DNA from: an uncultured Bacilli bacterium
GTDB taxonomy: Bacteria > Bacillota_I > Bacilli_A > RF39 > UBA660
Direction of reading: 5' to 3'
DNA length: 64,000 bases
NCBI GenBank assembly: GCA_947632115.1
Contig: CANROB010000003.1
Span: 14,919-78,918 of the forward strand
Shown: one piece after another, positions 41,183 to 57,526 of the stretch
Layout of the letters: every line of letters starts with the position of its first letter
How positions within the stretch are numbered: the stretch's first letter is position 1
Notes under the pieces: generated by a model
The model's input: only the letters and a program-made list of their open reading frames with translations
The model's database searches: none
Told to the model about the DNA's origin: nothing
Translations under genes and position numbers: made by a program

Positions 41183-41923
41183 CTATGAAGAGATTTTTTC
41201 TAAAGATTCTCTTTTAAAATAACCTGTCGTTCCTTTTTTATTTCCAACTCTATAGGGATATTCTTCCCCTTCATAAATTTCTAAAATAATACGTTTCCAA
41301 CCAATCGCTTTTTGGTGGAAGGAAGAAGTAGCGGTGGCACTACTGGCGTATTCCCCAATTATTTTTACTCTATCTCCTACTTTTAATTCCTCTGGATTCT
41401 CTTTAGAAGAATCATCCTCTTTCTTCCAACGAGCTTCTAAGCTAATATCTTTAGAAATTCCTTTTGTAAAATCAAAGACTTCATCCCCGATATACCAGCC
41501 TAAAAAAACATATCCTTCTTTCACAGGATAAACAGGTTCAATCGCTTTTTCCCCTGCCATAATAAATTCTTCCTCTACTGGTGATCCACCGTTTGATTGA
41601 AAAGTAACCGTATAAGTTAAATCCGATACAGAAACTTTCTTTTCCCATTTGGCGACTAACTCAAAGCGACCTTTTACTTTAGAGTTAAAATCATATTTTT
41701 CGCCATCTTTTTGCCAGTATAGAAAGTTGTATCCTTCTTTTACTGGTTCTACTGGTTCTTCTACTAAATTTCCTACTTTGATAAGTTCGCTTTCTACGGG
41801 AGTTCCTCCATCAGAATCAAAAGTGATTAGGTATTGATTGCCCAAAAATAAAGAATAAAGAACCACAGCCACCGTAATAAAAATGACTACAGCTAAAACA
41901 ATAAAAACATTTTGTTTTTTCAT
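41183..41923 (-). CDS. membrane-anchored protein with two InlB B-repeat (Listeria-Bacteroides repeat) domains
   Basis: N-terminal TM helix, then two copies of TF.S.GG(T/S)PVE...V.EP..P.KEGY.F.GW. Start at 41923, after an AGGAGGG RBS. Confidence 0.8.
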   Translation of the reverse strand: MKKQNVFIVLAVVIFITVAVVLYSLFLGNQYLITFDSDGGTPVESELIKVGNLVEEPVEPVKEGYNFLYWQKDGEKYDFNSKVKGRFELVAKWEKKVSVSDLTYTVTFQSNGGSPVEEEFIMAGEKAIEPVYPVKEGYVFLGWYIGDEVFDFTKGISKDISLEARWKKEDDSSKENPEELKVGDRVKIIGEYASSATATSSFHQKAIGWKRIILEIYEGEEYPYRVGNKKGTTGYFKRESLEKISS

Positions 41924-41999
41924 AGAAAACCCTCCTGATACTACCCTTATTAGCTCCATTATACAAACATTTAAAATTCTTTGTCAAGAAAACTTTTTA

Positions 42000-44595: not shown

Positions 44596-45846
44596 CTATT
44601 GTTCGTTAAAAAAATATCCAAATAATTTTCCTAACATGCTATCACGTGTTGCTTCAACCGGTACTTTTTGAACGTCTGCCAATCGAGAGGCATCCTCATT
44701 TCCTACCATTGAATAATTCTTGCCTTGTAATTTTAACTTACTAATAAAGTAAACAATATTTCCTACGCAAGATGAAAATTTGTTATCTCGGATACCTAAT
44801 AATTTGATATTTCCAATACTGACATTCTTTCCTAAAACAAAAGAAGCCGTGTACTCAATATCCACCATATTACTAGTACCACCTGTTATTATCATATAAT
44901 CAATTTTCTTCGTTGTCAATATATTCATCTCTTTTTTTGCTAGATTTAAAATCTCTTCTAGCCTAGAAGAAACAATTTCTGAAACCTCAAATTGATTCAC
45001 TTTTAAAGCACTATCTAGAGAAGTAGAAATCTCATACATATCCCCTGTAGAAGCATTTCTTTTATTCGCTAAAGCAAAGTGATGTTTTAATTCTCTAGAG
45101 GTAGTTAAATCGGTTTTATACATATAAGCGATATCATTATCAATATTTTTACCACCCATAGGAACTACAGAACTTTTTACAATCACACCTCGATTATAAA
45201 GAGAAATACTTGTTGTTTCACTACCAATATTTAAAATTATTCCTACTTTTTCTTCCATCTCTTTATTTTTAAAGGCATATAAATCACCAATATTATTTAA
45301 AGTGATATCGACAACTTCAATACCAAGAGACTCTAAAAGGCTGATAACCGAATAGACATTCTTCTCAGGAGTACTTACCAAAACTCCTCTTACACTTAAT
45401 TTCTCACCTTTTTGATTTGTTGGATTCTTAAGAGGAAGAGAATCATCTACCTTAAAATCCACTGGTAACATAGTTACAAATTCTCGTTTTTCTAGCTTTT
45501 TAGAAGCAACCGCTGCTTGTATAACAGAAGTAATTTCTAAAGAACTAACAATTCCTGTTTCTTCTGGAATATCTACTGTTGCTTTTACAATCGAATATTC
45601 TGAAAAATAAGAAGGAACTGAAACGATTACGCGGCGTATCGGAATACCAATTTTAGATTCGATATCAAAAAGAGCTCCTCTAACAGATTTTCCTGCCTCT
45701 TCGACATCCGTAATCAGTCCTTTTTTTATTCCTTTTGAAGGAAAAGATGATGCTGCAAGCAAATTGAGTTTATTTTGATAAAGCTCACAAACTACCACTT
45801 TTATACTATCAGAACCAATATCCATGCTAGTATAAATATGCTTCAT
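44596..45846 (-). CDS. ftsA: cell division protein FtsA
   Basis: Actin-fold ATPase (DIGSDSIKVVV, NIGSETTSISL, ITGGTS) immediately upstream of ftsZ. Confidence 0.95.
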   Translation of the reverse strand: MKHIYTSMDIGSDSIKVVVCELYQNKLNLLAASSFPSKGIKKGLITDVEEAGKSVRGALFDIESKIGIPIRRVIVSVPSYFSEYSIVKATVDIPEETGIVSSLEITSVIQAAVASKKLEKREFVTMLPVDFKVDDSLPLKNPTNQKGEKLSVRGVLVSTPEKNVYSVISLLESLGIEVVDITLNNIGDLYAFKNKEMEEKVGIILNIGSETTSISLYNRGVIVKSSVVPMGGKNIDNDIAYMYKTDLTTSRELKHHFALANKRNASTGDMYEISTSLDSALKVNQFEVSEIVSSRLEEILNLAKKEMNILTTKKIDYMIITGGTSNMVDIEYTASFVLGKNVSIGNIKLLGIRDNKFSSCVGNIVYFISKLKLQGKNYSMVGNEDASRLADVQKVPVEATRDSMLGKLFGYFFNEQ

Positions 45847-45878
45847 AGTATCATCTCCTACAGTCTAACAATATTATA
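45847..45878 (-). promoter_or_regulatory. ftsA -10 box plus leader, homologous to the leaders of the array's small genes
   Basis: On the minus strand: GTATAATATTGTTAGACTGTAGGAGATGATACT-ATG. The first 15 nt are identical to the region upstream of the small gene at 53798. Confidence 0.5.
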
Positions 45879-45910
45879 CTATAATTTTTGTAAATAGAAA
45901 AGTTTTTTCC

Positions 45911-45965
45911 AAGGAAAAAAGAAAAGAGTCCTTATTTTTTAAGTATTTTTAAGATAGACTCTTTT
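45911..45965 (-). terminator. candidate terminator between the array and ftsA (long loop)
   Basis: On the minus strand: AAAAGAGTC-(26 nt)-GACTCTTTT followed by CTTTTTTCC. The 9-bp stem has an unusually large AT-rich loop, so confidence is moderate. Confidence 0.4.
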
Positions 45966-46001
45966 AAAATATTAACTAAGACCTGCCTCATCTTTTACCT
46001 A

Positions 46002-48101
46002 TTAAACAGCATTTTCTGAAACATTTGGTTCCTCCTGATTAAAAATAATATCTCTTGAAACAATCATTTTATAATCAGCAGAAGATATATCCACAATCAT
46101 TTTTTCTCCCCACGTACTAACAACCAAATCGTCTTTGCTGGTAAAACCAGTAATCGTCATAGCATGACTTTCGCCATTTTTCATGTAGCAATCTCCTCGT
46201 TCCCCAGTAACTGGATCAACAGTATATAAATCATATCCGAAAGAATTCAGCTCGATAGTTTTCCCACTCTTCAAGTTTTCTTTTATTTTATCAATATCTA
46301 TTGGAGGCTCTGGTGGTTTTTCCGCCATTGTTTTTGAATCATAGTAATAATCATATAACGTTTCAGCATCAAATTGATAATCCTCAGCTGGTATTTTTTC
46401 TTCTAAAAATTTTCTTAGAGAACTGGTTCTCGCAAGAGAATAGGATACAGAGAAAAAGTTAAAACTTTCTAAAGGAGAAATGGTGTCGCGTTTTTTTTCT
46501 AAATAATTCTCCACTGTTAAATCTGCAAATTTTTCCTCTTCTGTTTCCTTGTCTCTTTCCTCATCTGTTTTTTTCAAAAAATCATAAATTTCAGTAATAT
46601 CATGTCCAGACCAATAATAAGAAAAGAGTTCCATTGTCAAATAGGTATAATTATATTTTTTTACCCCGTTCGAATTAACGGTATACATATCGTATCCAAA
46701 ATATTTTCTGAATAAGTCTTCTTTTCCTTCAAACTGATCAAAAATAAAGTTAGACATCGCAACATATCCGCAACCACAGTTAGTCAATTGCTGAAAAAAT
46801 AAGCAATAGTCTAATTCATCCGCATCGGGATATTTCTCTTTTAAAAAATTACTAACCCATTCATCTTCTAGAAGTTCATCGGTATGAAAATCAAAATAGT
46901 CTTGATTCCCGCCATAAGTTCCTGTGTAAATATTGAATTTAGAAAAAATTCCTCCCTTTTGCTCTTCGCTCCAATCTCCTACACATCTAATCAAATCTCC
47001 ATAACCCTCATAAGTTAAAGAACGACCATCTTTAAAGTGAACAATCATAAATTTATCATAAACAGTCACACGAGAAATCGTAGAAAGATTCATACTATCA
47101 GCGGTATAAAGAGATAAAAATTTATCCGTTTGTTCATCTTTAAAGGAAACATCATAACTATTTCCATGAAATCGAATATTAGAGATAGCATCTTTTGGAA
47201 CTTCAAAATCTCCAACAACCACAAAATTATCCCCCTGAATATAAAGAGGAGCATCAAAACCAGGAAGATACAAACTCAGCGACTCTCTTTCTCCATCTGA
47301 GTTTAACCACTCCGTACTCAAATCACAAAGGGCATCCAAATTTGACAGTTGAATTCCCTCTTTTTCCCAGATAGTTTCTGTTATTTTTTGACTAAAATAA
47401 TTTGTAACTGTACCATCGAAATAACTAGATCTAAGTATTACAGGTTGAAGAACCTCATCCCAAGAAAAGAAAACACTTCTTATATAATCCTCAATTTTTT
47501 GTAAAATGGGATTTTCTTGAGTAGAAACATGACAAACAGGATTTTTTCGTTTTACAATTCGATTCGTTTTATCATAAACAAGATATCCATTACCAGTCAA
47601 ATGAACGGTTACCGTATTTTTTTCTACCCGAACGTTTTCAACTAACTTACTATCAATATATAATCCATCGGGTAAAAAAACTTGTCCTAATTGATTAGGG
47701 TATAAAGAAATGGTATATCCCTTTTTATCGGTAGAAATATCAGCAACTTCTTCAGCAAGTATTTGCATTCCGTTATCTAAAACAAAACAATTTCCGTCAT
47801 CTGATAGTTTAGGAAGTCTTTCATTAAAATCTGAATTTTCATGGTCAAAAATTCCCGCCTTAAAATCCTCAAGCGTAATACCAAATTTCTCTAAAATTTT
47901 ATTAACTCTTTCTTCTGCATTAGTAACATTTTCTTTCACAAAAGAAAGTGTTTCTTCTATAGGATTATTCCCTGCTTTTTCATGGTCGGTTTTTTCACTG
48001 GAGGTAGCATTTGTCTGTTGATAAGAACCAATACTACTATTTTTTAATCCGTTATAGTCACTATTGAATGTTACTTTCGCCCTTTCAAATCCTTCTGCCA
48101 T
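46002..48101 (-). CDS. array large protein, copy 4 in transcription order (699 aa); putative papain-fold Cys/His C-terminal domain
   Basis: Intact ORF with a GAGGTGA RBS, 10 nt after the small gene's stop. Conserved MAEGFE.. N-terminus. GCGY (Cys444, nt 46770-46772) and SHAMTITG (His646, nt 46164-46166) followed by VSTWG. Confidence 0.85.
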   Translation of the reverse strand: MAEGFERAKVTFNSDYNGLKNSSIGSYQQTNATSSEKTDHEKAGNNPIEETLSFVKENVTNAEERVNKILEKFGITLEDFKAGIFDHENSDFNERLPKLSDDGNCFVLDNGMQILAEEVADISTDKKGYTISLYPNQLGQVFLPDGLYIDSKLVENVRVEKNTVTVHLTGNGYLVYDKTNRIVKRKNPVCHVSTQENPILQKIEDYIRSVFFSWDEVLQPVILRSSYFDGTVTNYFSQKITETIWEKEGIQLSNLDALCDLSTEWLNSDGERESLSLYLPGFDAPLYIQGDNFVVVGDFEVPKDAISNIRFHGNSYDVSFKDEQTDKFLSLYTADSMNLSTISRVTVYDKFMIVHFKDGRSLTYEGYGDLIRCVGDWSEEQKGGIFSKFNIYTGTYGGNQDYFDFHTDELLEDEWVSNFLKEKYPDADELDYCLFFQQLTNCGCGYVAMSNFIFDQFEGKEDLFRKYFGYDMYTVNSNGVKKYNYTYLTMELFSYYWSGHDITEIYDFLKKTDEERDKETEEEKFADLTVENYLEKKRDTISPLESFNFFSVSYSLARTSSLRKFLEEKIPAEDYQFDAETLYDYYYDSKTMAEKPPEPPIDIDKIKENLKSGKTIELNSFGYDLYTVDPVTGERGDCYMKNGESHAMTITGFTSKDDLVVSTWGEKMIVDISSADYKMIVSRDIIFNQEEPNVSENAV

Positions 48102-48111
48102 ATTTCACCTC

Positions 48112-48765
48112 TTATAAATAATCTACATATGTTTTTTCTAATATCGTGACTAAAACAGGAAGTTTTCCTATCAATTTTCTTTCGAAAGTTCTAGAAAATT
48201 CTTGAATAAAGAATTTTTGAACTTTCAAGTTTTCAATAAATTCTTTTCCTCTAACAATATTTTCATTCTTTCCACAGTGAAAAGCAATCACTAGGTTTTT
48301 ACTATCGACAATATTTTTTGGTATCATTGCCCCATAACAGGTAGTTGTGGCTTCTTCATAAACTCCTCTTCTATAGTTATCACGAATTACTTCTGGGTAA
48401 GTTTTTTTCACAACTTCAAGAACAGCCTCATCTACCTTTTCTTTTTCCTTTAAAAGGTCAATATCTTCTGTTTCTAGTTTTTCGATAAATAAAAAATTAC
48501 GAATATAAAAATACTTAGAAGGAGATACTTTTTGATAAGGATTTTTTCTTTCTTCTGGTACTACACCAAAATCTAGATGGATTTCTTCTACCACTTTATC
48601 GCATTGTAATAGGTCAAAATAATGAGCTAAAACTTGATATAAACCTTCTCGATAAATACGCTCTATCTTCTCATAAAGGGTATAATCCTCTTTCCTAATA
48701 AGTCCTTTTTCTTCGGTCATTTGTTGATTGATGAAATCTTTTTGTCTTTTTATTTCTTCTATCAT
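48112..48765 (-). CDS. array small partner protein, copy 3 (217 aa), unknown function
   Basis: Intact ORF with an AGGAGA RBS. No TM helix or signal peptide. 11 of 217 residues differ from the copy at 53145..53798 (hand count). Confidence 0.85.
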   Translation of the reverse strand: MIEEIKRQKDFINQQMTEEKGLIRKEDYTLYEKIERIYREGLYQVLAHYFDLLQCDKVVEEIHLDFGVVPEERKNPYQKVSPSKYFYIRNFLFIEKLETEDIDLLKEKEKVDEAVLEVVKKTYPEVIRDNYRRGVYEEATTTCYGAMIPKNIVDSKNLVIAFHCGKNENIVRGKEFIENLKVQKFFIQEFSRTFERKLIGKLPVLVTILEKTYVDYL

Positions 48766-48794
48766 AAGGATTTCTCCTATCTTTTATTAATATT

Positions 48795-48823
48795 ATTATA
48801 TCAATCCATAACAAAGTCGGTAA
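48795..48823 (-). promoter_or_regulatory. sigma-A-type promoter of array unit (TTACCG, 17-nt spacer, TGaTATAAT)
   Basis: -10 TATAAT at 48800-48795 with TG at -15/-14, and -35 at 48823-48818. The same architecture sits upstream of all three small genes. Confidence 0.6.
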
Positions 48824-48862
48824 TCAAAAGAAATATTAACCAAGGTCTGCCTCATCCTTTAT

Positions 48863-50977
48863 CTATTGAATAGCCTCATCTAAAACGTTTGGTTCCTCTG
48901 TATTTAAAGTAATATCTCTTGAAACAATGGATTTATAAGTCGCGGAAGATATATCCGCAATCCATTTTTGACCCCACGTACTAACAATTAAGTCTCCTTC
49001 TTTGGTAATATCAGTAATCGTCATAACGTGACTTTCGCCTTTTTCCATGTAGCAATCTCCACGTTCCCTAGTAACTGGATCAACAGTATATAAGTCATAT
49101 TCAAAAGCACTCAACTCGACAGTTTTCCCACTTTTCAACTCTTCTCTTATTTTATCAATATCTATTGGAGGTTCTGGTGGTTTTTCCGCCATTGTGTCTT
49201 TATCGTAGTAATAATCATATAATTCTTCTACATCAAATTGATAATCCTCAGAGGGTATTTTTTCTTTTAAAAAGTCACTTAAGCAATTTGTACGTGTAGA
49301 TACGTCTGATCCATTAAAAGGCACAAATCCTACTAAAGAAGTATAGATATCGGTCCTTTTTTCAAAATGATTTCCCACTGTTAAATCTGCAAATTTTTCC
49401 TCTTCTTTTTCTTTATCTCTTTCCTCGTCCGTTTTTTTCAAAAAATCATAAATTTCAGTAATATCATATCCAGACCAATAGTAGGAGAAAAGTTCCGTTG
49501 TCAAATACTTATAGTTATATGTTTTCACTCCACTAGAATCAATGGTATACATATCGTACCCAAAATATTTTTTAAATAAATCTTCTTTGCCTTCAAACTG
49601 GTCAAAAATACAATTGGCTAATGAAATATATCCACAACCACGATCAGTCAATCGCTCAAAAAATAAATAATAGTCTAACTCATCCGCATCGGGATATTTC
49701 TCTTTTAAAAAATTCGTAATCCATTCATCTTCTAAAAGTTCGTTGGTATGGGAAGAAAAGTAGCCTTGATCTCCGCCATAATATTTTACATAACTATTGA
49801 ACTCAGAAAAAATTCCTCCTTTTTGCTCTTTTTTCCAATTTCCCTCACAGTTCATAAAGTCACCATAAAGTTCATAAGTCAAAGACCTGCCATCCTTAAA
49901 ATGAACAACCATAGAATCATTATTCATCGTAATATGAGAAAGGGAGGAAGTATCAAATTCTGTCATGGAAGGATTAGAAAGAGTTAACGTCTCATGCTTC
50001 CAGTTATCTTTAAAGAATACATCATAACTATTTTCATGAAGACAAATCTCAGAAACAGCATCTTCTGAAATCTCAAAAGCCCCATAAGTCCAAAGTTTAT
50101 TATCGCGAATGAGAATAGGATTAGTTAAATTACGGGCATATAAAAATAAACTTCCCTCATCACCCTTCCACTCTATGGTTTTTCCACTATATCCATAAAA
50201 TTGATCTAAATTTGATAATTGGATTCCCTTTTCAGCCCATAGAGCTTCTGTTGTTTTTTGGCTAAAATAATTCCATGTTGTTCCCTCAACATCATCCTTA
50301 AATGTTTCCGTTATTATCGGATGAAGAACCTCATCCCAAGAAAAGAAAACACTTCTTATATAATCATCAATTTTTTGCAAAATAGGATTTTCTTGGGTAG
50401 AAACATGATAAACAGGATTTTTTCGTTTTACAATTCGATTCGTTTTATCATAAACAAGATATCCATCATCAATCAAATGAACGGTGGTTGTATCTTTCTC
50501 TACCCGAATATCTTCAACTAACTTACTATCAATATATAATCCATCGGGTAAAAAAACTTGTCCTAATTGATTAGGGTATAAAGAGATGGTATATCCCTTT
50601 TTATCAGTAGAAATATCAGCTACTTCTTCAGCAAGTATTTGCATTCCATTATCTAAAGTGAAACAATTTCCATCATCTGATAGTTTAGGGATTCTTTCAT
50701 TAAAATCTAATTTGTCATGACTAAGAATTCCTTCCTTAAGTTCATTTAGTGTAATGCCTAATTTTTCTATAATCCGATTGATATTTTCTTTGGCATTAGT
50801 AACATTTTCTTTTACAAAAGAAAGCGTTTCTTCTATAGGATTATTCCCTGTTTTTTCATAGTCAGTTTTTTCACTGGAGGTAGCATTTGTCTGTTGATAA
50901 GAGCCAATACTACTATTTTTTAATCCACTATAGTCACTATTTAATGTTACTTTCGTTTTTTCAAATCCTTCTGCCAT
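48863..50977 (-). CDS. array large protein, copy 3 (704 aa from the homologous ATG); no intact small gene upstream
   Basis: Start placed at the ATG at 50977 (MAEGFEK), by homology with the other copies. The track uses an upstream GTG. It carries the GCGY and SHVMTITD...VSTWG motifs. Confidence 0.85.
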   Translation of the reverse strand: MAEGFEKTKVTLNSDYSGLKNSSIGSYQQTNATSSEKTDYEKTGNNPIEETLSFVKENVTNAKENINRIIEKLGITLNELKEGILSHDKLDFNERIPKLSDDGNCFTLDNGMQILAEEVADISTDKKGYTISLYPNQLGQVFLPDGLYIDSKLVEDIRVEKDTTTVHLIDDGYLVYDKTNRIVKRKNPVYHVSTQENPILQKIDDYIRSVFFSWDEVLHPIITETFKDDVEGTTWNYFSQKTTEALWAEKGIQLSNLDQFYGYSGKTIEWKGDEGSLFLYARNLTNPILIRDNKLWTYGAFEISEDAVSEICLHENSYDVFFKDNWKHETLTLSNPSMTEFDTSSLSHITMNNDSMVVHFKDGRSLTYELYGDFMNCEGNWKKEQKGGIFSEFNSYVKYYGGDQGYFSSHTNELLEDEWITNFLKEKYPDADELDYYLFFERLTDRGCGYISLANCIFDQFEGKEDLFKKYFGYDMYTIDSSGVKTYNYKYLTTELFSYYWSGYDITEIYDFLKKTDEERDKEKEEEKFADLTVGNHFEKRTDIYTSLVGFVPFNGSDVSTRTNCLSDFLKEKIPSEDYQFDVEELYDYYYDKDTMAEKPPEPPIDIDKIREELKSGKTVELSAFEYDLYTVDPVTRERGDCYMEKGESHVMTITDITKEGDLIVSTWGQKWIADISSATYKSIVSRDITLNTEEPNVLDEAIQ

Positions 50978-51020
50978 AAACACCTCTTATAAATATCTAT
51001 AAAAATATCTTTTTTCTTTG
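50978..51020 (-). pseudogene. probable relic of the 3' end of a deleted small partner gene
   Basis: CACCTCTTATAAATA (plus strand) is identical to the stop/RBS junction of the intact small-large pairs. It is followed by degenerate similarity (TCTA.A...TTTTTTCT) to the last codons of the small genes. Confidence 0.5.
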
Positions 51021-51046
51021 ATAAGAAAATTATCTTACCTAATCCA

Positions 51047-53134
51047 TTACTTGGCACTACCTTCACTAATCGTTTCAGAAATAATAGTAGCTCTTTTTGC
51101 ATCCGATACATCTACAATCAGTTTTTTACCCCAAGTACTAACAATTAAATCTCCTGATTTAGTTACACCGGTAATCGTCATGGCGTGACCTCCTCCATTT
51201 TTATGAACCCTTTTTCCTCGTTCTCCAGTAGTGGAGTCAATTAGATATAAATCATATCCAGATGCACTTAACTCAAGAAATCTTCCTTGCTCTAATTCTT
51301 TCTTTATGTTATTAAGAGTCATATCGTAGACTATTTTATCAGCGCCGATTAAAGCATCAGCTTTCTCATAAGGAAAATACAATTCTTCATAAGAATACTC
51401 GAAATTGCTTGGAAGTTTTTCTTTTAAAAATTTTTCTAAGCATTCTGCTCTTTCTAAAATCGTAGATCCATCAAAGTCATCATATTCATCTAAACATTCA
51501 TCTATTTTCTTTTCTTTTTCATCAAAATTCTCTACCGTTAAATTTGGTATTTCCTTGCCTAAATAATCATAAATTTCTGTGATATCATGTCCAGACCAAT
51601 AATAAGAGAATAGTTCTAATGTCAAGTATTTATAATTATAATTTTTAAGTCCATTTTCATTAACGGTATACATATCATATCCAAAATACTCTTTAAACAA
51701 GTCTTCTTTTCCTTCGAACTGTTCAAAGATAAAATTAGACATGGCAACATATCCGCAACCACAGTTAGTCAATTGTTGAAAAAATAAATAATAGTCTAGT
51801 TCATTCGCATCGGGATATTTCTCTTTTAAAAAATCAGTAACCCATTCATCTTCTAGAAGTTCCTCAACATTGTAAGCAAAGTAATGTTGATCCCCACCAT
51901 ATTGATACGCATAATAGTTTAAATCAGAAAAAATACCATTTATTTCCTCTTCTTTCCAATCCCCACTATATCCTGATAATTCTCCATACTCTTTATAAGT
52001 CAATGTTCTACCATCCTTAAAGTGTACTTCTATATAGTCTTTATAAACAACAACACGAGAAATATCACAAAGATCAATACTCACATCAGAATAGGAGCAG
52101 GTAAAAGCGTCATTCTTTCCTCGATCGCGGAAAGAGATCTCATAACTATCACTATTAAAATGAATATCAGAAATGGCCTTTGTAGGAAGCGTGAAAAATC
52201 TCATAACAGAAAAATCTTTTTCCTTGATATTAATAGAAGAGTCAAAATCGAGAAGAGAAAGTTTTAAGTAAGAATTTTTACCAGATTTATCTGAAATTTC
52301 ATAACTTTCGTCATAATGTTGATCTAACCCTGATATCGTAATGCCTTCTCTTTCACATAAGGATTCAAACGTTTCCTGACTGAAATATTTTTTTTCATTT
52401 TTAGAATCTGTGGTAGTGGAAATGACAACAGGATGAATGATATCTTCCCAAGAAAAGAAAACATTTTTTAGATAATATTGAACGATTCCAACCATGTTTT
52501 TTTTATCTGGAGGTATTTGATAACAAGGTTTTCTACGGTCAAGTACCTTACCATCTTTATCTAAAACAAGATAGCCATCTCCAGCTAAAGTAAGCGTTAT
52601 CTTATCTTCTGTTACTGTAATTTTTTTTACTTCACCAGAATCGATATATAATCCTCCTGGTAATAGAGTTTGACCATTTTGACTAGAATCAATAGAAATG
52701 GTATATTCCTCTTGACCAAAAGAAATATCAGTTACTATCTTAGTAGGTATCTGTAGATTATTCTCAAAGTGAAAATAACTGTCGTGAATAGAAAAAGGTA
52801 ACATCTTCCCAGTAAAATTTACATCCGCACCGAAAACGTTTCCTTTCGCATCTACAGTTTGATAGCCACCATCGATATAGGAGCAATCCTCACTATCATT
52901 GATATCTATTCCTAACCCTCTAAAGACCTTACCTAAGTCAGAATTTGAAAAAGGGACACTTTCCGTAGTGTTACTTTGACTCATCCTTACTGAATTAGGA
53001 TTCTCGCCAGAATAGCAATCAGTTTCAGAAAAGGATTCTATCCCATTTTGCCCTGAAGATTGAGGATGAGTCGTTTTAAGGCCATTATAGTCATTATTTA
53101 ATGTTATTTTCGTTTTTTCAAATCCTTCGGCCAT
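51047..53134 (-). CDS. array large protein, copy 2 (695 aa), the most divergent paralogue
   Basis: Same first 20 aa and the same C-terminal motifs (NCGCGYVAMSN, GGGHAMTITG, VSTWG). Residues ~20-220 and the linker are strongly diverged. Confidence 0.85.
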   Translation of the reverse strand: MAEGFEKTKITLNNDYNGLKTTHPQSSGQNGIESFSETDCYSGENPNSVRMSQSNTTESVPFSNSDLGKVFRGLGIDINDSEDCSYIDGGYQTVDAKGNVFGADVNFTGKMLPFSIHDSYFHFENNLQIPTKIVTDISFGQEEYTISIDSSQNGQTLLPGGLYIDSGEVKKITVTEDKITLTLAGDGYLVLDKDGKVLDRRKPCYQIPPDKKNMVGIVQYYLKNVFFSWEDIIHPVVISTTTDSKNEKKYFSQETFESLCEREGITISGLDQHYDESYEISDKSGKNSYLKLSLLDFDSSINIKEKDFSVMRFFTLPTKAISDIHFNSDSYEISFRDRGKNDAFTCSYSDVSIDLCDISRVVVYKDYIEVHFKDGRTLTYKEYGELSGYSGDWKEEEINGIFSDLNYYAYQYGGDQHYFAYNVEELLEDEWVTDFLKEKYPDANELDYYLFFQQLTNCGCGYVAMSNFIFEQFEGKEDLFKEYFGYDMYTVNENGLKNYNYKYLTLELFSYYWSGHDITEIYDYLGKEIPNLTVENFDEKEKKIDECLDEYDDFDGSTILERAECLEKFLKEKLPSNFEYSYEELYFPYEKADALIGADKIVYDMTLNNIKKELEQGRFLELSASGYDLYLIDSTTGERGKRVHKNGGGHAMTITGVTKSGDLIVSTWGKKLIVDVSDAKRATIISETISEGSAK

Positions 53135-53144
53135 ATTTCACCTC

Positions 53145-53798
53145 TTATAAATAATCTACATATGTTTTTTCTAATACCGTGACTAAAACAGGTAGTTTTC
53201 CTACTAATTTTCTTTCGAAAGTTCTAGAAAATTCTTGAATAAAGAATTTTTGAGCTTTTAAGTTTTCCATAAATTCTTTTCCCCTAACAATATTCTCGTT
53301 TTTTCCACAGTGAAAAGCAATTACTAAATTTTTACTATCGATAATATTTTTAGGTATCATCGCCCCATAACAGGTGGTTGTGGCATCTTCATAAACACCT
53401 CTTCTATAGTTATCACGAATCACTTCAGGGTAAGTTTTTTTAACAACTTCAAGAACAGCCTCATCCACTTCTTCTTTTTCTTTTAAAAGGTCAATATCTT
53501 CTTTTTCTAGTTTTTCGATAAATAAAAAATTACGAATATAAAAATATTTAGAAGGAGATACTTTTTGATAAGGGTTTTTTCTTTCTTCTGGTACTACACC
53601 AAAATCTAGATGAATCTCTTCTACCACTTTATCGCATTGTAATAAATCAAAATAATGAGCTAAAACTTGATATAAACCTTCTCGATAAATACGTTCTATC
53701 TTCTCATAAAGAGTATAATCACCTTTCCTAATAAGCCCTTTTTCTTCAGCCATTTTTTGATTGATGAAATCTTTTTGTCTTTTAATTTCTTCTATCAT
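53145..53798 (-). CDS. array small partner protein, copy 2 (217 aa)
   Basis: Intact ORF whose stop lies 10 nt upstream of the large gene's ATG (TAA-GAGGTGAAAT-ATG). Confidence 0.85.
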   Translation of the reverse strand: MIEEIKRQKDFINQKMAEEKGLIRKGDYTLYEKIERIYREGLYQVLAHYFDLLQCDKVVEEIHLDFGVVPEERKNPYQKVSPSKYFYIRNFLFIEKLEKEDIDLLKEKEEVDEAVLEVVKKTYPEVIRDNYRRGVYEDATTTCYGAMIPKNIIDSKNLVIAFHCGKNENIVRGKEFMENLKAQKFFIQEFSRTFERKLVGKLPVLVTVLEKTYVDYL

Positions 53799-53827
53799 AA
53801 AGTATTCTCCTATCTTTTACTAACAAT

Positions 53828-53856
53828 ATTATACCAATCCATCATAAAATCGGCAA
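53828..53856 (-). promoter_or_regulatory. sigma-A-type promoter of array unit (TTGCCG, 17-nt spacer, TGgTATAAT)
   Basis: -10 at 53833-53828, TG at -15/-14, and -35 at 53856-53851. Confidence 0.6.
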
Positions 53857-53868
53857 TCAAAGGAAATA

Positions 53869-56007
53869 TTAAGGAAGACCTACCTCATCTTTTACCCATT
53901 GAATAGCCTCATCTAAAACATTTGGTTCTTCCGTACCTAAAGTAATATCTCTTGAAACAATTGTTTTATAAGTAGCTGAAGATATATCCACAATCAATTT
54001 GTTTCCCCAAGTACTAACAACCAAATCTCCTTTTTTGGTAACACCCGTAATCGTCATAGCGTGGCCTCCACCATCTTCTATATAGCAAAATCCTCGTTCC
54101 CCAGTAACTGGATTAACAGTATATAAATCGTATCCAGAAGAAGCCAATTCAATCGTTTTTCCGCTTTTCAACTCTTCCCTTATTTTATCAATATCTATTG
54201 GAGGTTCTGGTGGTTTTTCCGCCATTGTCTCTTTATCATAGTAATAATCATATAACGTTTCAGCATCAAATTGATAATCCTCAGCTGGAATTTTTTCTTC
54301 TAAAAATTTTTTTAAACATTCCGTTCTAGGAGCAGGAACTGGTCCCCGAAAGGCTTCAAATTGATCCAAATCATCTTTGATATACTCCCTTAACAAAGAA
54401 TAATTTTCTGCTGATAAATTTGAATTTTTGTACTTTTCCTGTTTGATTAAATAATCATAAATGGAGGTAATATCATAATCAGACCAATAGTAAGAGAAAA
54501 ATTCCGTTACCAAATATTCATAATTATATTTTTTTGCTCCATCAGAATCAACGGTATACATATCGTATCCAAAATATTTTTTGAATAATTCTTCTTTTCC
54601 TTCAAACTGTTCAAAAATACAATTGGCTATCGCAATATATCCACAACCATGGTTAGTTAATTCATCAAAAAACAAGTAATAGTCTAGTTCATCCGCATCG
54701 GGGTATTTTTCCTTTAAAAAATTCGTAATCCATTCATCTTCTAAAAGTTCATCAATATGAGGGAAAAAATTGTGATGATTTCCTCCATAAGTTCCTGTGT
54801 AACTATTAAATTCAGAAAAAATTCCTCCCTTTTGCTCTTCGCTCCAATCCCCAGTAGAACTGACAGATTCATCAGAACTATTATAAGTCAAGGAACGACC
54901 ATCCTTAAAATGAATGATCATAGAATCATTATAAACAGTAACATAAGAAATCGAAGAAAGGCTAAAACTAGCAGAAAGGCTACAAAGTTCAGAACTATAA
55001 ACGGTGAAAGGTTTATCTATTAATCCCTCTTTGAAATAAACATCATAACTATTTTCATGAAAGCGAATATCAGAAATAGCATCTTTTGAGATTTTAAATG
55101 CTCCATCAACTAGGAAAGTATCCCTTTGAACAAGAAGAGGAGTATCAAAATCACGGAGAAATAAACTCATCGACTCTCTTTCTCCATCTGGGTTTAACGT
55201 CTCCATGCCGGTATCACAAAGGACGTCTAAATTTGATAGTTTAATTCCTTCATTTTCCCATAAGGTTGTTGTTGTTTTCGAATCAAAGTAATGATATGTC
55301 GTAGCTTCACCATTAAGATCATGCGATGTAAAAATACTAGTTACGACAGGATGAAGGATATCTTCCCAAGAAACAAAGACACTTTTTATATAATCATCAA
55401 TTTTTTGCAAAATGGGATTTTCTTGGGTAGAAACATGACAAACAGGCTTTTTTCGTTTTACAATTCGATTCGTTTTATCATAAACAAGATATCCATCACC
55501 AGTCAAATGAAGGGTTGCCGTATTTTTTTCTACCCGAATATCTTCGACTAGGTTACTATCAATGTATAATCCATCCGGTAAAATAATCTTCCTTGTTCGA
55601 TCAGGCTTTAAAGAAATAGTATATCCCTTTTTATCAGGAGAAATATCATCTACTTCTAAATAAGAAATCTGCATTCCATTATCTAAAATGAAAAAGGCAT
55701 AATCATCCGAAAGTTGAGGGAGTCTTTCGTTAAGATCTGAATTTTCATGGTCAAAAATTCCCGCCTTAAAATCCTCAAGCGTAATACCAAATTTCTCTAA
55801 CATTTTATTAATTCTTTCTTCTGCATTAGTAACATTTTCTTTCACAAAAGAAACTGTATCTTCTATAGGATTATTCCCTGCTTTTTCATGGTCGTTTTTT
55901 TCACCGGAGGTAGCATTTGTCTGTTGATAAGAACCAATACTACTATTTTTTAAGCCACTATAGTCACTATTGAATGTTACTTTTGCTTTTTCAAATCCTT
56001 CTGCCAT
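53869..56007 (-). CDS. array large protein, copy 1 (712 aa)
   Basis: Intact ORF with the same N-terminus and C-terminal motifs (HGCGYIA, GGGHAMTITG, VSTWG). It carries a 9-aa C-terminal extension relative to copy 3 (TGG where copy 3 has TAG). Confidence 0.85.
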   Translation of the reverse strand: MAEGFEKAKVTFNSDYSGLKNSSIGSYQQTNATSGEKNDHEKAGNNPIEDTVSFVKENVTNAEERINKMLEKFGITLEDFKAGIFDHENSDLNERLPQLSDDYAFFILDNGMQISYLEVDDISPDKKGYTISLKPDRTRKIILPDGLYIDSNLVEDIRVEKNTATLHLTGDGYLVYDKTNRIVKRKKPVCHVSTQENPILQKIDDYIKSVFVSWEDILHPVVTSIFTSHDLNGEATTYHYFDSKTTTTLWENEGIKLSNLDVLCDTGMETLNPDGERESMSLFLRDFDTPLLVQRDTFLVDGAFKISKDAISDIRFHENSYDVYFKEGLIDKPFTVYSSELCSLSASFSLSSISYVTVYNDSMIIHFKDGRSLTYNSSDESVSSTGDWSEEQKGGIFSEFNSYTGTYGGNHHNFFPHIDELLEDEWITNFLKEKYPDADELDYYLFFDELTNHGCGYIAIANCIFEQFEGKEELFKKYFGYDMYTVDSDGAKKYNYEYLVTEFFSYYWSDYDITSIYDYLIKQEKYKNSNLSAENYSLLREYIKDDLDQFEAFRGPVPAPRTECLKKFLEEKIPAEDYQFDAETLYDYYYDKETMAEKPPEPPIDIDKIREELKSGKTIELASSGYDLYTVNPVTGERGFCYIEDGGGHAMTITGVTKKGDLVVSTWGNKLIVDISSATYKTIVSRDITLGTEEPNVLDEAIQWVKDEVGLP

Positions 56008-56017
56008 ATTTCACCTC

Positions 56018-56671
56018 TTATAAATAATCTACATAGGTTTTTTCTAATACTGTGACTAAAACAGGTAGTTTTCCTACTAATTTTCTTTCGAAGGTTCTAG
56101 AAAATTCTTGAATAAAGAATTTTTGAGCTTTTAAGTTTTCAATAAATTCTTTTCCCCGAACAATATTCTCATTTTTTCCACAATGAAAAACAATTACTAA
56201 ATTTCTACTATCAATAATATTTTTAGGTATCATCGCCCCATAACAGGTGGTTGAAGTTTCTTCATAAACGCCTCTTCTATAGTTATCGCGAATGATTTCT
56301 GGGTAGGTCTTTTTCACAACTTCAAGAACAGAATCATCTACCTCTTCTTTTTCTTTTAAAAGGTCAATATCTTCTTTTTCTAGTTTTTCGATAAATAAAA
56401 AATTACGAATATAAAAATACTTAGAAGGAGATACTTTTTGATAAGGGTTTTGTCTTTCTTCTGGTACTACACCAAAATCTAGATGGATTTGTTCTACCAC
56501 TTTATCGCATTGTAATAAATCAAAATAGTGGGATAAAACTTGATATAAACCCTTTCGATAAAGGCACTCTACCTTTTCATAAAGAGTATAATCCTCTTTC
56601 CTAATAAGTCCTTTTTCTTCTGCTAATTGTTGATTAATGAAATCCTTTTGTCTTTTTATTTCTTCTATCAT
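56018..56671 (-). CDS. array small partner protein, copy 1 (217 aa)
   Basis: Intact ORF. About 19 of 217 residues differ from the copy at 53145..53798 (hand count). Confidence 0.85.
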   Translation of the reverse strand: MIEEIKRQKDFINQQLAEEKGLIRKEDYTLYEKVECLYRKGLYQVLSHYFDLLQCDKVVEQIHLDFGVVPEERQNPYQKVSPSKYFYIRNFLFIEKLEKEDIDLLKEKEEVDDSVLEVVKKTYPEIIRDNYRRGVYEETSTTCYGAMIPKNIIDSRNLVIVFHCGKNENIVRGKEFIENLKAQKFFIQEFSRTFERKLVGKLPVLVTVLEKTYVDYL

Positions 56672-56701: not shown

Positions 56702-56730
56702 ATTATACCAATCTGTGATAAAATCGGCAA
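56702..56730 (-). promoter_or_regulatory. sigma-A-type promoter of the first array unit (TTGCCG, 17-nt spacer, TGgTATAAT)
   Basis: -10 at 56707-56702 and -35 at 56730-56725, just downstream of the ftsQ stop (56747). Confidence 0.6.
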
Positions 56731-56746: not shown

Positions 56747-57526
56747 TTACTTTTTCTTTTCTTTCTCATAAGGATCTAGGTATTCCCCACCTTCTAAGTG
56801 TAGAACGCCTTTTTTTTCATTCGAACCTTCTAAATATTCAATATAATTATAAATTCTTTGAAACTTGGATTTTCCATTTTCTGTTTCTAAAGTTGCATAA
56901 ACATAATTGCCATCATTCATAGAAATCAAAAACAACTGCGTATCCTCTTCATCTGGAGTATATCGTATTTCAGACATTCTACTTAAGATATCAAGAGGTA
57001 CTCCTCCCATTTCTTGAATAAAGTTTTCTAAGACATCCGAAGGGACTTGATTTAAAAGCGTTGGAACAGCAAAAGTATCCTCTACTTCTTCTCCACTTTC
57101 TAAAACTGTTTTTCCTGTTGTTTCATAATAGAAAAGAGGTCTATTTTCATCTACCGTAATCACAACTTTCGTAAACCAATTTTTCTTCTCTACTTTCGCA
57201 GATTGGATATAGATATTTTTCTCAATATTTTTACGAATCAAATAACTTGGAGTCTTTAAAGTACTAGGATAATCTCGAATAAGAGCCATATCAATAATCT
57301 CTTGATCTCGAAAAAACTCATTATCCTTAACAATAATAGATTGGATAGGTACTTGAAAAAGTAACCACCCCACTAAGGCAATGATAAGAAGAAAAATGAA
57401 AAAGAAAAGAATTTTCACATACTGAATCTTACGTTTTTTCTTTTTCTTTTCTCTTTCTTTTTCTTTTTGAAGAGCAATCCTTGATTTATCGGAATGCTTT
57501 AATTCTTGCCTTTTTTCTTTTTTCAT
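56747..57526 (-). CDS. ftsQ: cell division protein FtsQ/DivIB
   Basis: Basic N-terminal tail, one TM helix, and a POTRA-like domain (IQSIIVKDNEFFRDQEI). It sits downstream of murB in the dcw cluster. Confidence 0.8.
   Translation of the reverse strand: MKKEKRQELKHSDKSRIALQKEKEREKKKKKRKIQYVKILFFFIFLLIIALVGWLLFQVPIQSIIVKDNEFFRDQEIIDMALIRDYPSTLKTPSYLIRKNIEKNIYIQSAKVEKKNWFTKVVITVDENRPLFYYETTGKTVLESGEEVEDTFAVPTLLNQVPSDVLENFIQEMGGVPLDILSRMSEIRYTPDEEDTQLFLISMNDGNYVYATLETENGKSKFQRIYNYIEYLEGSNEKKGVLHLEGGEYLDPYEKEKKK

What the first reader, a model, noticed from the sequence alone, without database searches (positions are those of the whole stretch)
46002..56671. A 10.7-kb tandem array of unrecognised paralogous gene pairs splits ftsQ/divIB from ftsA
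Seen in sequence: seven consecutive minus-strand genes lie between ftsQ (56747..57526) and ftsA (44596..45846). In transcription order they are small(217 aa)-large(712), small(217)-large(695), large(704), small(217)-large(699). I cannot place either protein in a named family by eye. Neither has a signal peptide or a TM segment. No transposase, integrase or phage gene flanks the array, and its AT-richness looks like that of the flanks. Established knowledge: the ftsQ-ftsA-ftsZ junction is one of the most conserved gene orders in bacteria. B. subtilis tolerates a few small lineage-specific genes here, but I know of no multi-copy diversifying family at this site. Inference: a locally amplified two-gene module whose transcription can read toward ftsA-ftsZ-spoIIGA-sigE. 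It may be linked to septation, sporulation or envelope remodelling, or it may be a conflict system parked in an essential operon.
Basis: partly seen in the sequence, partly recalled or inferred. Interest (0 to 1): 0.85.

Follow-up and report, generated by a model that had tools for sequence, protein, structure and literature searches.

The report
Toxin–immunity gene array splitting ftsQ/ftsA
The seven genes wedged between the cell-division genes ftsQ and ftsA are most likely three-and-a-half copies of a bacterial-warfare cassette, a secreted cysteine-hydrolase toxin plus its small protective partner; both proteins belong to undescribed families, but the kind of system is already known.

Summary
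Seven intact minus-strand ORFs lie at 46002-56671, between a POTRA/FtsQ gene and ftsA. The order is S1-L1, S2-L2, L3, S3-L4. The copies are 80-94% identical in DNA. Short-read assemblies from four other samples reproduce every junction except L3-to-S3. Five related loci have ftsQ directly next to ftsA, so the array is a lineage-specific insertion.

Neither protein matches Pfam, NCBIfam, PADLOC or PDB. The last ~300 residues of the large protein are a widespread domain (682 clusters at 50% identity). It has invariant Cys444, His646 and an SSWG motif, and a papain-like predicted topology. The domain sits behind very different N-termini: LXG-like helices, Sec signals, repeats.

The small protein is always the immediate neighbour of this domain (9 of 9 independent loci). 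Relatives lie in type VII secretion loci containing WXG100, DUF4176, DUF3958 or EssC. In two cultured species the small partner is membrane-anchored or a lipoprotein.

Best reading (confidence 0.62): amplified, recombining polymorphic-toxin/immunity cassettes. There is no support for a role in septation or sporulation. The window proteins lack an LXG domain, and their export route and target are unknown. Novelty: new member of a known kind. Interest is moderate.

The parts
56018..56671 (-). S1, small partner protein (217 aa), predicted cytoplasmic immunity/inhibitor
   Evidence: ORF. S-family HMM E = 4.5e-80. AF2 model of the family has pLDDT 88 and no PDB fold match.
53869..56007 (-). L1, large protein (712 aa): disordered leader, beta-hairpin repeats, C-terminal Cys/His hydrolase domain
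   Evidence: C-domain HMM E = 3e-130. Starts 10 nt after the S1 stop.
53145..53798 (-). S2, small partner (217 aa)
   Evidence: 95% identical to S3.
51047..53134 (-). L2, large protein (695 aa). Most divergent paralogue (45% identical to L4), but its catalytic core is conserved.
   Evidence: Faint Peptidase_C39_2 match over the His region, residues 604-665.
48863..50977 (-). L3, large protein (704 aa from ATG). It has no S gene of its own.
   Evidence: own RBS, 63-nt gap after L2.
48112..48765 (-). S3, small partner (217 aa)
46002..48101 (-). L4, large protein (699 aa). This is the copy modelled: residues 1-47 disordered, helix 47-71, beta repeats 105-375, alpha+beta domain 385-690 with Cys444, His646 and Ser662-x-Trp664-Gly665.
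   Evidence: AF2 mean pLDDT 81, C-domain above 90. Invariant residues across 75 homologues.
56702..56730 (-). Promoter-like element upstream of S1 (TTGCCG, 17-nt spacer, TG-extended TATAAT), followed by an AGGAGA RBS
   Evidence: Part of the conserved 64-nt repeat D12.
53828..53856 (-). Same promoter-like element upstream of S2
48795..48823 (-). Third copy of the promoter-like element upstream of S3 (TTACCG ... TGATATAAT)
   Evidence: Alignment and repeat D12. Coordinates inferred by register with the other two copies.
45847..46001 (-). L4-ftsA spacer. Its first ~50 nt are the end of the repeat unit. A weak hairpin plus T-run follows (about 45916-45965), then a TATAAT and the ftsA RBS.
   Evidence: (fold z = -0.45, not significant).

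Best explanation
The array is a tandemly amplified, recombining set of polymorphic-toxin-type effector/immunity cassettes that inserted between ftsQ and ftsA in this lineage of an uncultured Bacilli bacterium.

Each L protein is modular. It has a disordered N-terminal leader of about 47 residues, one helix, a beta-hairpin repeat stalk (residues ~105-375), and a C-terminal alpha+beta domain of about 300 residues. That domain is predicted to be a papain-like thiol hydrolase. Its nucleophile is Cys444 at the start of a helix. His646 lies at the start of a strand, and Ser662-x-Trp664-Gly665 lies on the next strand.

Each S protein is the cognate inhibitor or immunity protein. It would bind this domain and keep the producer, and sister cells, safe. 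S and L are co-transcribed from a promoter in front of S, with a 10-nt S-L gap suggesting translational coupling.

Shown here: the anatomy, the domain family, strict S/C-domain adjacency, relatives inside T7SS loci, and absence of the array in relatives.

Inferred: catalysis, neutralisation by S, export (probably type VII secretion, by analogy with relatives), and the target. The target is possibly in the cell envelope, because S is exported in two cultured species.
For: 1. Domain family. The C-terminal domain is a large family: 682 clusters with E <= 1e-3 and 367 with E <= 1e-10. It sits at the C-terminus of proteins 230-1500 aa long with unrelated N-termini. These include LXG-like or WXG-like helical regions, Sec signal peptides, YD-like repeats and N/S-rich leaders.

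2. Catalytic signature. G397, C444, F464, H646, S662 and G665 are invariant in 75 homologues, and Q400 and W664 nearly so. In the AF2 model Cys444 starts helix 444-456, His646 starts strand 646-653, and Ser662 is on strand 659-663. Peptidase_C39_2 is the only recurrent Pfam family (4 of 75 members, best E = 0.0048). In L2 the match covers the His region.

3. Adjacency. In all 9 independent loci where the neighbour can be read, the S-family gene is immediately next to a C-domain gene on the same strand, whatever that gene's N-terminus (365, 409, 416, 466, 493, 363, 711, 715 aa and the window's).

4. T7SS context in relatives. In L006 and L007 the pair follows four WXG100 genes and precedes DUF4176 plus giant-protein cassettes. 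In L021 the pair lies directly upstream of a 1522-aa FtsK_SpoIIIE (EssC-like) protein. In Enterococcus larvae the order is a DUF3958 gene, a protein that UniRef names 'LXG domain-containing', then the S homologue.

5. Exported partners. S homologues carry a TM anchor in E. larvae and a lipoprotein signal in Anaeromicropila herbilytica. That fits immunity and does not fit a cytoplasmic secretion chaperone.

6. Recombination and selection. Block-wise identity among L1-L4 is mosaic, which indicates recombination. L evolves faster (dN/dS 0.3-0.7) than S (0.07-0.13), and all seven ORFs are intact.

7. Lineage-specific insertion. The array is absent from five related ftsQ-ftsA junctions.
Against: - The window's L proteins have no LXG domain or signal peptide. 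No WXG100, DUF4176 or EssC gene lies in the 64-kb window (no ORF of EssC size). Export of these particular proteins is therefore unproven.
- The papain-like fold was not confirmed by structure comparison. Both Foldseek runs on the full-length model were dominated by low-TM beta-repeat hits. Sequence profiles found no papain-like chain in the PDB.
- S is much more conserved than L, and S precedes L. Both are unusual for co-diversifying toxin/immunity pairs.
- One L gene (L3) has no S gene of its own.
- Short Sec-type family members in two Clostridia MAGs have no S neighbour. The domain is therefore not always a toxin needing immunity.
- S here is cytoplasmic, whereas it is exported in the two isolates.
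Confidence: 0.62

Rival explanations
1. Self-directed envelope enzyme with a safety inhibitor. On this reading the L proteins are the cell's own papain-like peptidoglycan or envelope hydrolases. They would be used at the septum or during sporulation, and S would be a cytoplasmic inhibitor that prevents premature activity. The logic resembles staphopain/staphostatin or a regulated autolysin.
For: The array lies in the dcw cluster next to murG, murB, ftsQ and ftsA, upstream of spoIIGA and a sigma-70-family gene. Other pairs lie near femAB, a murD-like gene and murI and near yceG. Sec-secreted or lipoprotein family members without any S partner exist and look like ordinary secreted enzymes. S in the window is cytoplasmic. 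The S copies are under strong purifying selection.
Against: Relatives with 80-83% identical FtsZ lack the array entirely, so it is not a conserved part of the division or sporulation programme. The L proteins have no export signal of a housekeeping type. Relatives are embedded in T7SS toxin islands. Mosaic recombination and multi-copy amplification are typical of conflict genes. Other insertion sites are unrelated to the envelope (hsp20/prfA).
Confidence: 0.13
2. Intracellular toxin-antitoxin or abortive-infection module. On this reading L is never exported. S (the antitoxin, encoded first and with its own promoter) restrains L until phage infection or stress releases it.
For: The S-first gene order with a promoter in front of S resembles type II TA operons. 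Neither protein has a signal peptide or TM segment. No secretion genes lie in the window.
Against: No PADLOC defence model matches the window proteins. S has no recognisable DNA-binding domain. L is about 700 aa with a long repeat stalk, unlike TA toxins. The same domain occurs with Sec signals, LXG-like regions and T7SS neighbours, and S is exported in two species. All of that argues for action outside the producer's cytoplasm. In 6 of 9 loci the order is L then S.
Confidence: 0.1
3. Assembly or binning artefact. On this reading the repeat copy number or the position between ftsQ and ftsA is a mis-join in a metagenome-assembled contig.
For: The source appears to be a MAG contig of 79.6 kb. 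The supporting contigs have only about 2-3x coverage and show small indels relative to the window. The L3/S3 junction has no independent support.
Against: The copies are 6-20% divergent in DNA, so they do not collapse or expand in assembly. Six contigs from four other samples reproduce seven of the eight junctions at 98.6-100% identity, including ftsQ/S1 and L4/ftsA.
Confidence: 0.03

Closest known systems
T7SSb LXG-type polymorphic toxin/immunity systems (for example Streptococcus intermedius TelC-TipC, Staphylococcus aureus EsaD-EsaG with tandem EsaG copies, Bacillus subtilis LXG toxins)
   Same: A C-terminal toxin domain is shuffled onto different N-terminal regions. A small cognate partner gene lies adjacent. 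The genes occur as multi-copy arrays that recombine. Relatives of this family sit beside WXG100, DUF4176, DUF3958 and EssC genes. The partner can be exported, as TipC is.
   Different: The window proteins have no LXG domain and no Lap, WXG or DUF4176 helper genes nearby. The partner gene comes first and has its own promoter. The partner is more conserved than the toxin. The toxin domain and the partner are not in Pfam or NCBIfam.
Papain-fold toxin domains of polymorphic toxins (Tox-PL1, Tox-PL2, Tox-PL3, Tox-PL-C39, Tox-TGase; Zhang et al. 2012, PMC3482391)
   Same: A predicted Cys-His thiol-hydrolase domain lies at the extreme C-terminus of secreted multi-domain proteins. Its weak similarity is to the C39-like branch.
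   Different: No member reaches the threshold of any Pfam papain-like model. The signature is distinct (YGGxQ ... GCGY ... G-x-HAM-x-x-TG ... VSSWG), with Ser where papain has Asn175 and most Tox-PL families have Asp. The partner is not Imm35 or Imm73.
Staphopain/staphostatin operons (scpAB, sspBC) of Staphylococcus aureus
   Same: A papain-like cysteine protease is co-transcribed with a dedicated cytoplasmic inhibitor that has no signal peptide. The inhibitor protects the producer's cytoplasm.
   Different: Staphopains have a Sec signal and a prodomain, and staphostatins are beta-barrels of about 108 aa. S is a 217-aa alpha/beta protein with no PDB fold match. Staphopain operons are single-copy and are not found in T7SS islands.
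T6SS Tae/Tai amidase effector-immunity pairs, and the T7SS-associated CHAP hydrolase EssH
   Same: Papain-like (NlpC/P60 or CHAP) hydrolases are used by secretion systems on the cell wall. The immunity proteins are located outside the membrane, as the S homologues are in E. larvae and A. herbilytica.
   Different: No sequence match to NlpC/P60 or CHAP models. Peptidoglycan activity has not been tested. S is cytoplasmic in the window.

Membership tests
Polymorphic toxin system (sensu Zhang/Aravind 2012) | The same C-terminal domain is attached to different N-terminal trafficking or stalk regions in different proteins | tested here: met
   682 clusters share the domain. The N-termini are unrelated: SP, LXG-like, repeats, N-rich leaders.
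Polymorphic toxin system (sensu Zhang/Aravind 2012) | A small cognate immunity gene lies immediately adjacent and tracks the toxin domain rather than the N-terminus | tested here: met
   In 9 of 9 independent loci S is next to a C-domain gene on the same strand. hhalign of the E. larvae partner against the S family gives probability 99%.
Polymorphic toxin system (sensu Zhang/Aravind 2012) | A recognisable N-terminal secretion or trafficking domain on the protein in question | tested here: not met
   L1-L4 have no Pfam or NCBIfam domain and no signal peptide or TM segment. They carry only a variant of an uncharacterised N-terminal motif.
Polymorphic toxin system (sensu Zhang/Aravind 2012) | Toxicity of the C-terminal domain and its neutralisation by the partner | not testable with these tools
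   This needs expression and rescue experiments.
T7SSb LXG toxin | An N-terminal LXG domain | tested here: not met
   No LXG hit for L1-L4. The AF2 model shows a disordered leader, one helix and beta repeats rather than a helical LXG bundle.
T7SSb LXG toxin | Genomic association with T7SS genes (essC, WXG100, Lap/DUF3130/DUF3958, DUF4176) | tested here: inconclusive
   Not met in the 64-kb window. Met for homologous pairs in L006, L007, L009 and L021. The rest of the source genome could not be read.
Papain-like cysteine peptidase (clan CA, C39-like) | A conserved nucleophile Cys at the N-terminus of a helix, with His and a third polar residue on adjacent beta strands | tested here: met
   C444, H646 and S662 are invariant in 75 sequences. 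Their positions in the AF2 secondary structure fit this arrangement.
Papain-like cysteine peptidase (clan CA, C39-like) | A significant profile or structural match to a clan member | tested here: inconclusive
   Peptidase_C39_2 matches only 4 of 75 members, best E = 0.0048, below the gathering score. Foldseek on the full-length model was swamped by the beta-repeat region. PDB profile searches were negative.
Type II toxin-antitoxin or known anti-phage defence system | A match to known TA or defence protein models; a small antitoxin with a DNA-binding domain | tested here: not met
   PADLOC gave no hit for the window proteins. Pfam found no HTH, RHH or AbrB domain in S.
Conserved dcw (division/cell wall) cluster gene | Present at the same position in related genomes | tested here: not met
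   In five related loci ftsQ and ftsA are about 80-220 nt apart with no intervening gene.

The most novel reading that the evidence does not exclude
The L proteins may represent a non-LXG class of secreted effectors. On this reading they are targeted by a short, positionally fixed N-terminal linear motif, [VIY]-E-[EDT]-h-[DSN]-h at residues ~31-50. This motif is found on 23 of 134 family members, on the toxin directly upstream of EssC, and on an RHS-repeat protein in the same T7SS locus. The effectors would carry a previously undescribed papain-like hydrolase domain that acts on an envelope target reachable from either side of the membrane. That would explain why one new-fold immunity family is cytoplasmic in some lineages and a lipoprotein or membrane-anchored protein in others.
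Probability: 0.22. Interest if true: 0.65.

Novelty: new member of a known kind. Interest (0 to 1): 0.45.

Why it matters
The finding adds an unannotated but widespread toxin domain (hundreds of sequence clusters, mostly in AT-rich gut Firmicutes) to the repertoire of Gram-positive interbacterial weapons. It also adds a partner family with no detectable structural relative. It shows that such cassettes can settle and amplify inside the division/cell-wall cluster, directly upstream of ftsA-ftsZ, without disrupting it. Three questions become testable. What does this Cys/His domain cleave? Why does its immunity protein sit on different sides of the membrane in different species? Is the short N-terminal motif a secretion signal? 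For annotation, the practical point is that these 'hypothetical proteins' should be flagged as candidate effector/immunity pairs.

Tried and rejected
- Pfam, NCBIfam, PHROGs and PADLOC scans of the window proteins gave nothing above noise. Pfam and NCBIfam scans of 41 or 75 homologues were also at noise level.
- PDB sequence searches found only spurious hits to designed repeat proteins. The queries were the paralogue profile, the C-domain profile, a His-region profile and a Cys-region profile.
- Foldseek on the full-length L4 model, against PDB and BFVD, was dominated by beta-propeller, TCP10 and OspA-like matches to the N-terminal repeats at TM below 0.12. It says nothing about the catalytic domain.
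- The Foldseek search with the S model found nothing (best E = 0.2).
- hhalign of the C-domain profile against a C1-like peptidase that happens to lie in L021 aligned only SSWG to NSWG, at probability 0.35%. I do not count this as evidence.
- tblastn against the plasmid and phage collections found no match.
- The genome-contig scan did not recover the source genome. An exact look-up of the window's FtsA found nothing. I therefore could not check the rest of the genome for a T7SS.
- The terminator idea for the L4-ftsA spacer was rejected as unproven. The hairpin energy is no better than shuffled sequence.
- Promoter and terminator consensus counts in the region equal shuffled expectation. Only the three conserved copies upstream of the S genes are worth noting.
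- I considered S as a secretion chaperone and rejected it. S tracks the C-domain rather than the N-terminus, and it is exported in two species.
Full report
**Observation**

In transcription order they are:

| Gene | Coordinates | Length (aa) |
|---|---|---|
| S1 | 56018-56671 | 217 |
| L1 | 53869-56007 | 712 |
| S2 | 53145-53798 | 217 |
| L2 | 51047-53134 | 695 |
| L3 | 48863-50977/50983 | 704 from ATG, 706 from GTG |
| S3 | 48112-48765 | 217 |
| L4 | 46002-48101 | 699 |

- **Flanks.** Pfam confirms them. Upstream lie uvrC, a 269-aa gene with no Pfam match, murG, murB and a POTRA_1 FtsQ-type gene. Downstream lie ftsA, ftsZ, spoIIGA and a sigma-70-family factor.
- **Spacing.** Each S-to-L gap is 10 nt. 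The L-to-S gaps are 70-97 nt and the L2-to-L3 gap is 63 nt.
- **Composition.** Neither protein has a hydrophobic segment. G+C matches the flanks. No tRNA or Rfam element occurs in the window.

**Is the array real?**

- The repeat copies are 80-94% identical in DNA, and dS between S copies is 0.30-0.37. The duplications are therefore old and would not be created or collapsed by an assembler.
- Six short contigs from four other metagenome samples align to the window at 98.6-100% identity. Between them they cover murB-ftsQ-S1, S1-L1, L1-S2-L2, L2-L3 and S3-L4-ftsA. Only the L3-to-S3 junction lacks independent support.

**Is it conserved at this site?**

No. A metagenome scan with the window's FtsA returned five loci whose FtsZ is 80-83% identical. 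In all of them ftsQ and ftsA are adjacent, with gaps of roughly 80-220 nt and no intervening gene; the four loci that extend far enough show the whole murG-murB-ftsQ-ftsA-ftsZ run. The array is a lineage-specific insertion into an otherwise compact junction. The 90%-identity cluster of the window's FtsZ includes a protein that NCBI names 'MAG: Bacilli bacterium'.

**What the proteins are**

Neither protein matches Pfam, NCBIfam, PHROGs, PADLOC or PDB sequences above noise. The word-indexed search of 5.8 billion proteins found essentially only the same organism.

An exhaustive HMMER search with the four paralogues showed that profile positions ~380-670 form a large family: 682 clusters with E <= 1e-3 and 367 with E <= 1e-10. 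In these proteins the domain is C-terminal, and the N-terminal parts are unrelated to one another. They include LXG-like or WXG-like helical regions, Sec signal peptides or lipoprotein signals, YD-like repeats and N/S-rich leaders.

Across 75 members, G397, C444, F464, H646, S662 and G665 are invariant, and Q400 and W664 nearly so.

The AlphaFold model of L4, built with this alignment, has mean pLDDT 81 and above 90 in the C-domain:
- Residues 1-47 are disordered and a helix spans 47-71.
- Beta-hairpin repeats span 105-375.
- An alpha+beta domain follows. Cys444 opens helix 444-456, His646 opens strand 646-653, and Ser662 lies on the next strand.

From my own recollection of the papain sequence, H159-AVAAVGY...IKN175-SW177-G has the same His-to-Gly (6) and His-to-Trp (18) spacings as H646-AMTITGF...VVS662-TW664-G. 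This is a lead, not a test.

The tested evidence for the fold is weak. Peptidase_C39_2 is the only Pfam family that recurs among members (4 of 75, best E = 0.0048). In L2 the match covers the His region. Structural confirmation failed. Foldseek on the full-length model returned only low-TM beta-repeat matches, and profile searches of PDB sequences were negative. I therefore call the domain a predicted papain-like Cys/His hydrolase and treat clan membership as inconclusive.

**The small protein**

A profile search found about 20 further S-family clusters, none with a Pfam domain. The AF2 model is confident (pLDDT 88) but has no PDB fold match (best E = 0.2).

The decisive evidence is genomic. 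HMMs for the C-domain and the S family were run over all ORFs of every locus fetched. In all nine independent loci where the neighbour is readable, the S gene is immediately adjacent to a C-domain gene on the same strand. The C-domain proteins in those loci have quite different N-termini (365, 409, 416, 466, 363, 493, 711, 715 aa and the window's ~700). The order is L-then-S in six loci and S-then-L in three. S therefore follows the C-terminal domain and not the N-terminal region. An immunity or inhibitor protein would behave this way. A secretion chaperone would not.

**Context in relatives**

- In L006 and L007 the pair follows four WXG100 genes and a 167-aa gene. DUF4176 genes, giant proteins and further small genes come after it.
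- In L021 the pair lies directly upstream of a 1522-aa FtsK_SpoIIIE protein of EssC size. Further downstream in that locus are helical proteins and an RHS-repeat protein.
- In Enterococcus larvae BWM-S5 the order is a 92-aa helical protein, a DUF3958 protein (E = 1.2e-10), a 493-aa protein that UniRef names 'LXG domain-containing protein' and that carries the C-domain, and then an overlapping 267-aa gene. That last gene encodes an N-terminal TM helix plus an S-family domain (hhalign probability 99%, E = 4.5e-18).
- In Anaeromicropila herbilytica a 363-aa helical-N/C-domain protein is followed by a 265-aa S homologue with a lipoprotein-type signal, which UniRef names 'Lipoprotein'.

These are the hallmarks of type VIIb polymorphic toxin loci.

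Other pairs sit as isolated islets between housekeeping genes: after secG, between yceG/O-methyltransferase and comEA, and between hsp20 and prfA. Landing between ftsQ and ftsA therefore fits the family's habit. It does not imply a functional link to division.

**Array dynamics**

- Block-wise identity among L1-L4 is mosaic. In alignment columns 121-160, L4/L3 is 98% identical and L4/L1 is 58%. In columns 81-120, L4/L1 is 92% and L4/L3 is 60%. In columns 441-480, L4/L2 is 90%. The nearest relative changes from block to block, so the copies recombine.
- Hypervariable stretches lie in the second half of the repeat stalk and in an insert within the catalytic domain.
- dN/dS is 0.07-0.13 for S. 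For L it is 0.32-0.40 in the catalytic domain and 0.45-0.69 in the repeat stalk.
- All copies are intact.
- Each S gene is preceded by a conserved 64-nt element. It contains TTGCCG, a 17-nt spacer, a TG-extended TATAAT and an AGGAGA RBS. The transcription unit therefore appears to be S-L.
- L3 lacks an S gene and has only an RBS.
- The L4-ftsA spacer holds a hairpin that is no more stable than shuffled sequence, so read-through into ftsA is possible but untested.

**Interpretation**

The best-supported reading (confidence about 0.62) is an amplified set of polymorphic-toxin-type effector/immunity cassettes, with L as the effector and S as its inhibitor.

- Shown: the anatomy, the domain family, the S/C-domain linkage, the T7SS context of relatives, and absence of the array from related junctions.
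- Inferred: catalysis by Cys444/His646, neutralisation by S, export of the window's L proteins, and the target.

Exported S homologues in two cultured species suggest an extracytoplasmic (envelope) site of action. The cytoplasmic S in the window, and in all 20 metagenomic homologues, suggests protection inside the producer. I cannot reconcile the two.

Rival readings:
- A self-directed envelope enzyme with a staphostatin-like safety inhibitor (0.13).
- An intracellular TA or abortive-infection module (0.10).
- An assembly artefact (0.03).

**Points against the preferred reading**

- The window proteins have no LXG domain and no signal peptide.
- No T7SS gene lies in the window.
- S is much more conserved than L.
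- S is encoded first.
- L3 has no S gene.
- Sec-type family members in two Clostridia MAGs have no S neighbour.

**Side observation**

A positionally fixed motif, [VIYLM]-E-[EDTNS]-h-[DSNE]-h, occurs at residues 31-50 in 23 of 134 family members, against 1.9 +/- 1.4 sequences with a hit anywhere in positions 25-75 after shuffling the N-terminal 100 residues. It also occurs on the toxin next to EssC (VEEFSLEAF) and on an RHS-repeat protein in the same locus (VEDFDLSEF). L1, L3 and L4 carry a looser version (IEETLSF, residues 49-55). It may be a trafficking signal.

**Novelty and score**

Polymorphic toxin/immunity systems, T7SS toxins and papain-fold toxin domains are all established (PMC3482391). 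New here are a toxin-domain family and an immunity family that no curated library covers, and the position and amplification of the cassettes inside the dcw cluster. I rate it a new member of a known kind, with interest 0.45.

Noticed in passing
Family-wide, N-terminal residues 31-50. Window L4 residues 49-55 (about nt 47937-47957). L021:4188-5285 and L021:12912-13949.: A short motif, [VIY]-E-[EDT]-h-[DSN]-h, sits at a fixed distance from the N-terminus in 23 of 134 C-domain proteins (shuffled control 1.9 +/- 1.4). It is also on an RHS-repeat protein in a T7SS locus. It may be a trafficking signal distinct from LXG.
   Followed up: partly
L009:10785-11588 (Enterococcus larvae) and L010:10972-11769 (Anaeromicropila herbilytica), compared with window S1-S3: The same partner family is TM-anchored or a lipoprotein in the two cultured species. 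It is a plain cytoplasmic protein in the window and in all 20 metagenomic homologues. The compartment where the toxin acts is therefore unclear.
   Followed up: partly
L011:3109-4206 and L012:9944-10921 (Clostridia MAGs): Short Sec-signal or lipoprotein versions of the C-domain (365 and 325 aa) lie among ribosomal and housekeeping genes with no S-family neighbour. These may be ordinary secreted enzymes from which the toxin versions derive.
   Followed up: partly
L006:11714-16246 and L007:17080-20648: Giant proteins (1510 aa, and more than 1189 aa) in DUF4176-headed cassettes carry the same Cys/His domain internally rather than at the C-terminus. The complete one (L006) is followed by a different small gene (about 172 aa); the L007 protein runs off the end of its locus. 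In these proteins the domain may act as a processing peptidase or as a second toxin module.
   Followed up: no
L021:2-2440: An 812-aa protein two genes upstream of the toxin/S/EssC cluster carries a papain C1-type motif (NQSGRGLCWDFAS ... NSWG). This is a second, unrelated cysteine peptidase close to a T7SS locus.
   Followed up: no
window 1296-4157 (-): A 953-aa protein combines three Lamin Tail Domains, Fn3-associated and CHB_HEX_C modules and a C-terminal CotH kinase domain. This is a large spore-coat-kinase-like surface protein.
   Followed up: no
window 41183-41959 (-): The gene after the sigE-like sigma factor is a Listeria-Bacteroides repeat (Flg_new) protein, not a second sigma factor. 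The spoIIGA-sigE-sigG order of Bacillus is therefore not kept here.
   Followed up: no
L022 and L023 compared with window ~54810-54993; L003 compared with window 45092-45145: The independent low-coverage assemblies differ from the window by indels of 50-85 nt inside L1 and inside ftsA. These could be strain polymorphism in the hypervariable stalk or low-coverage assembly errors.
   Followed up: no
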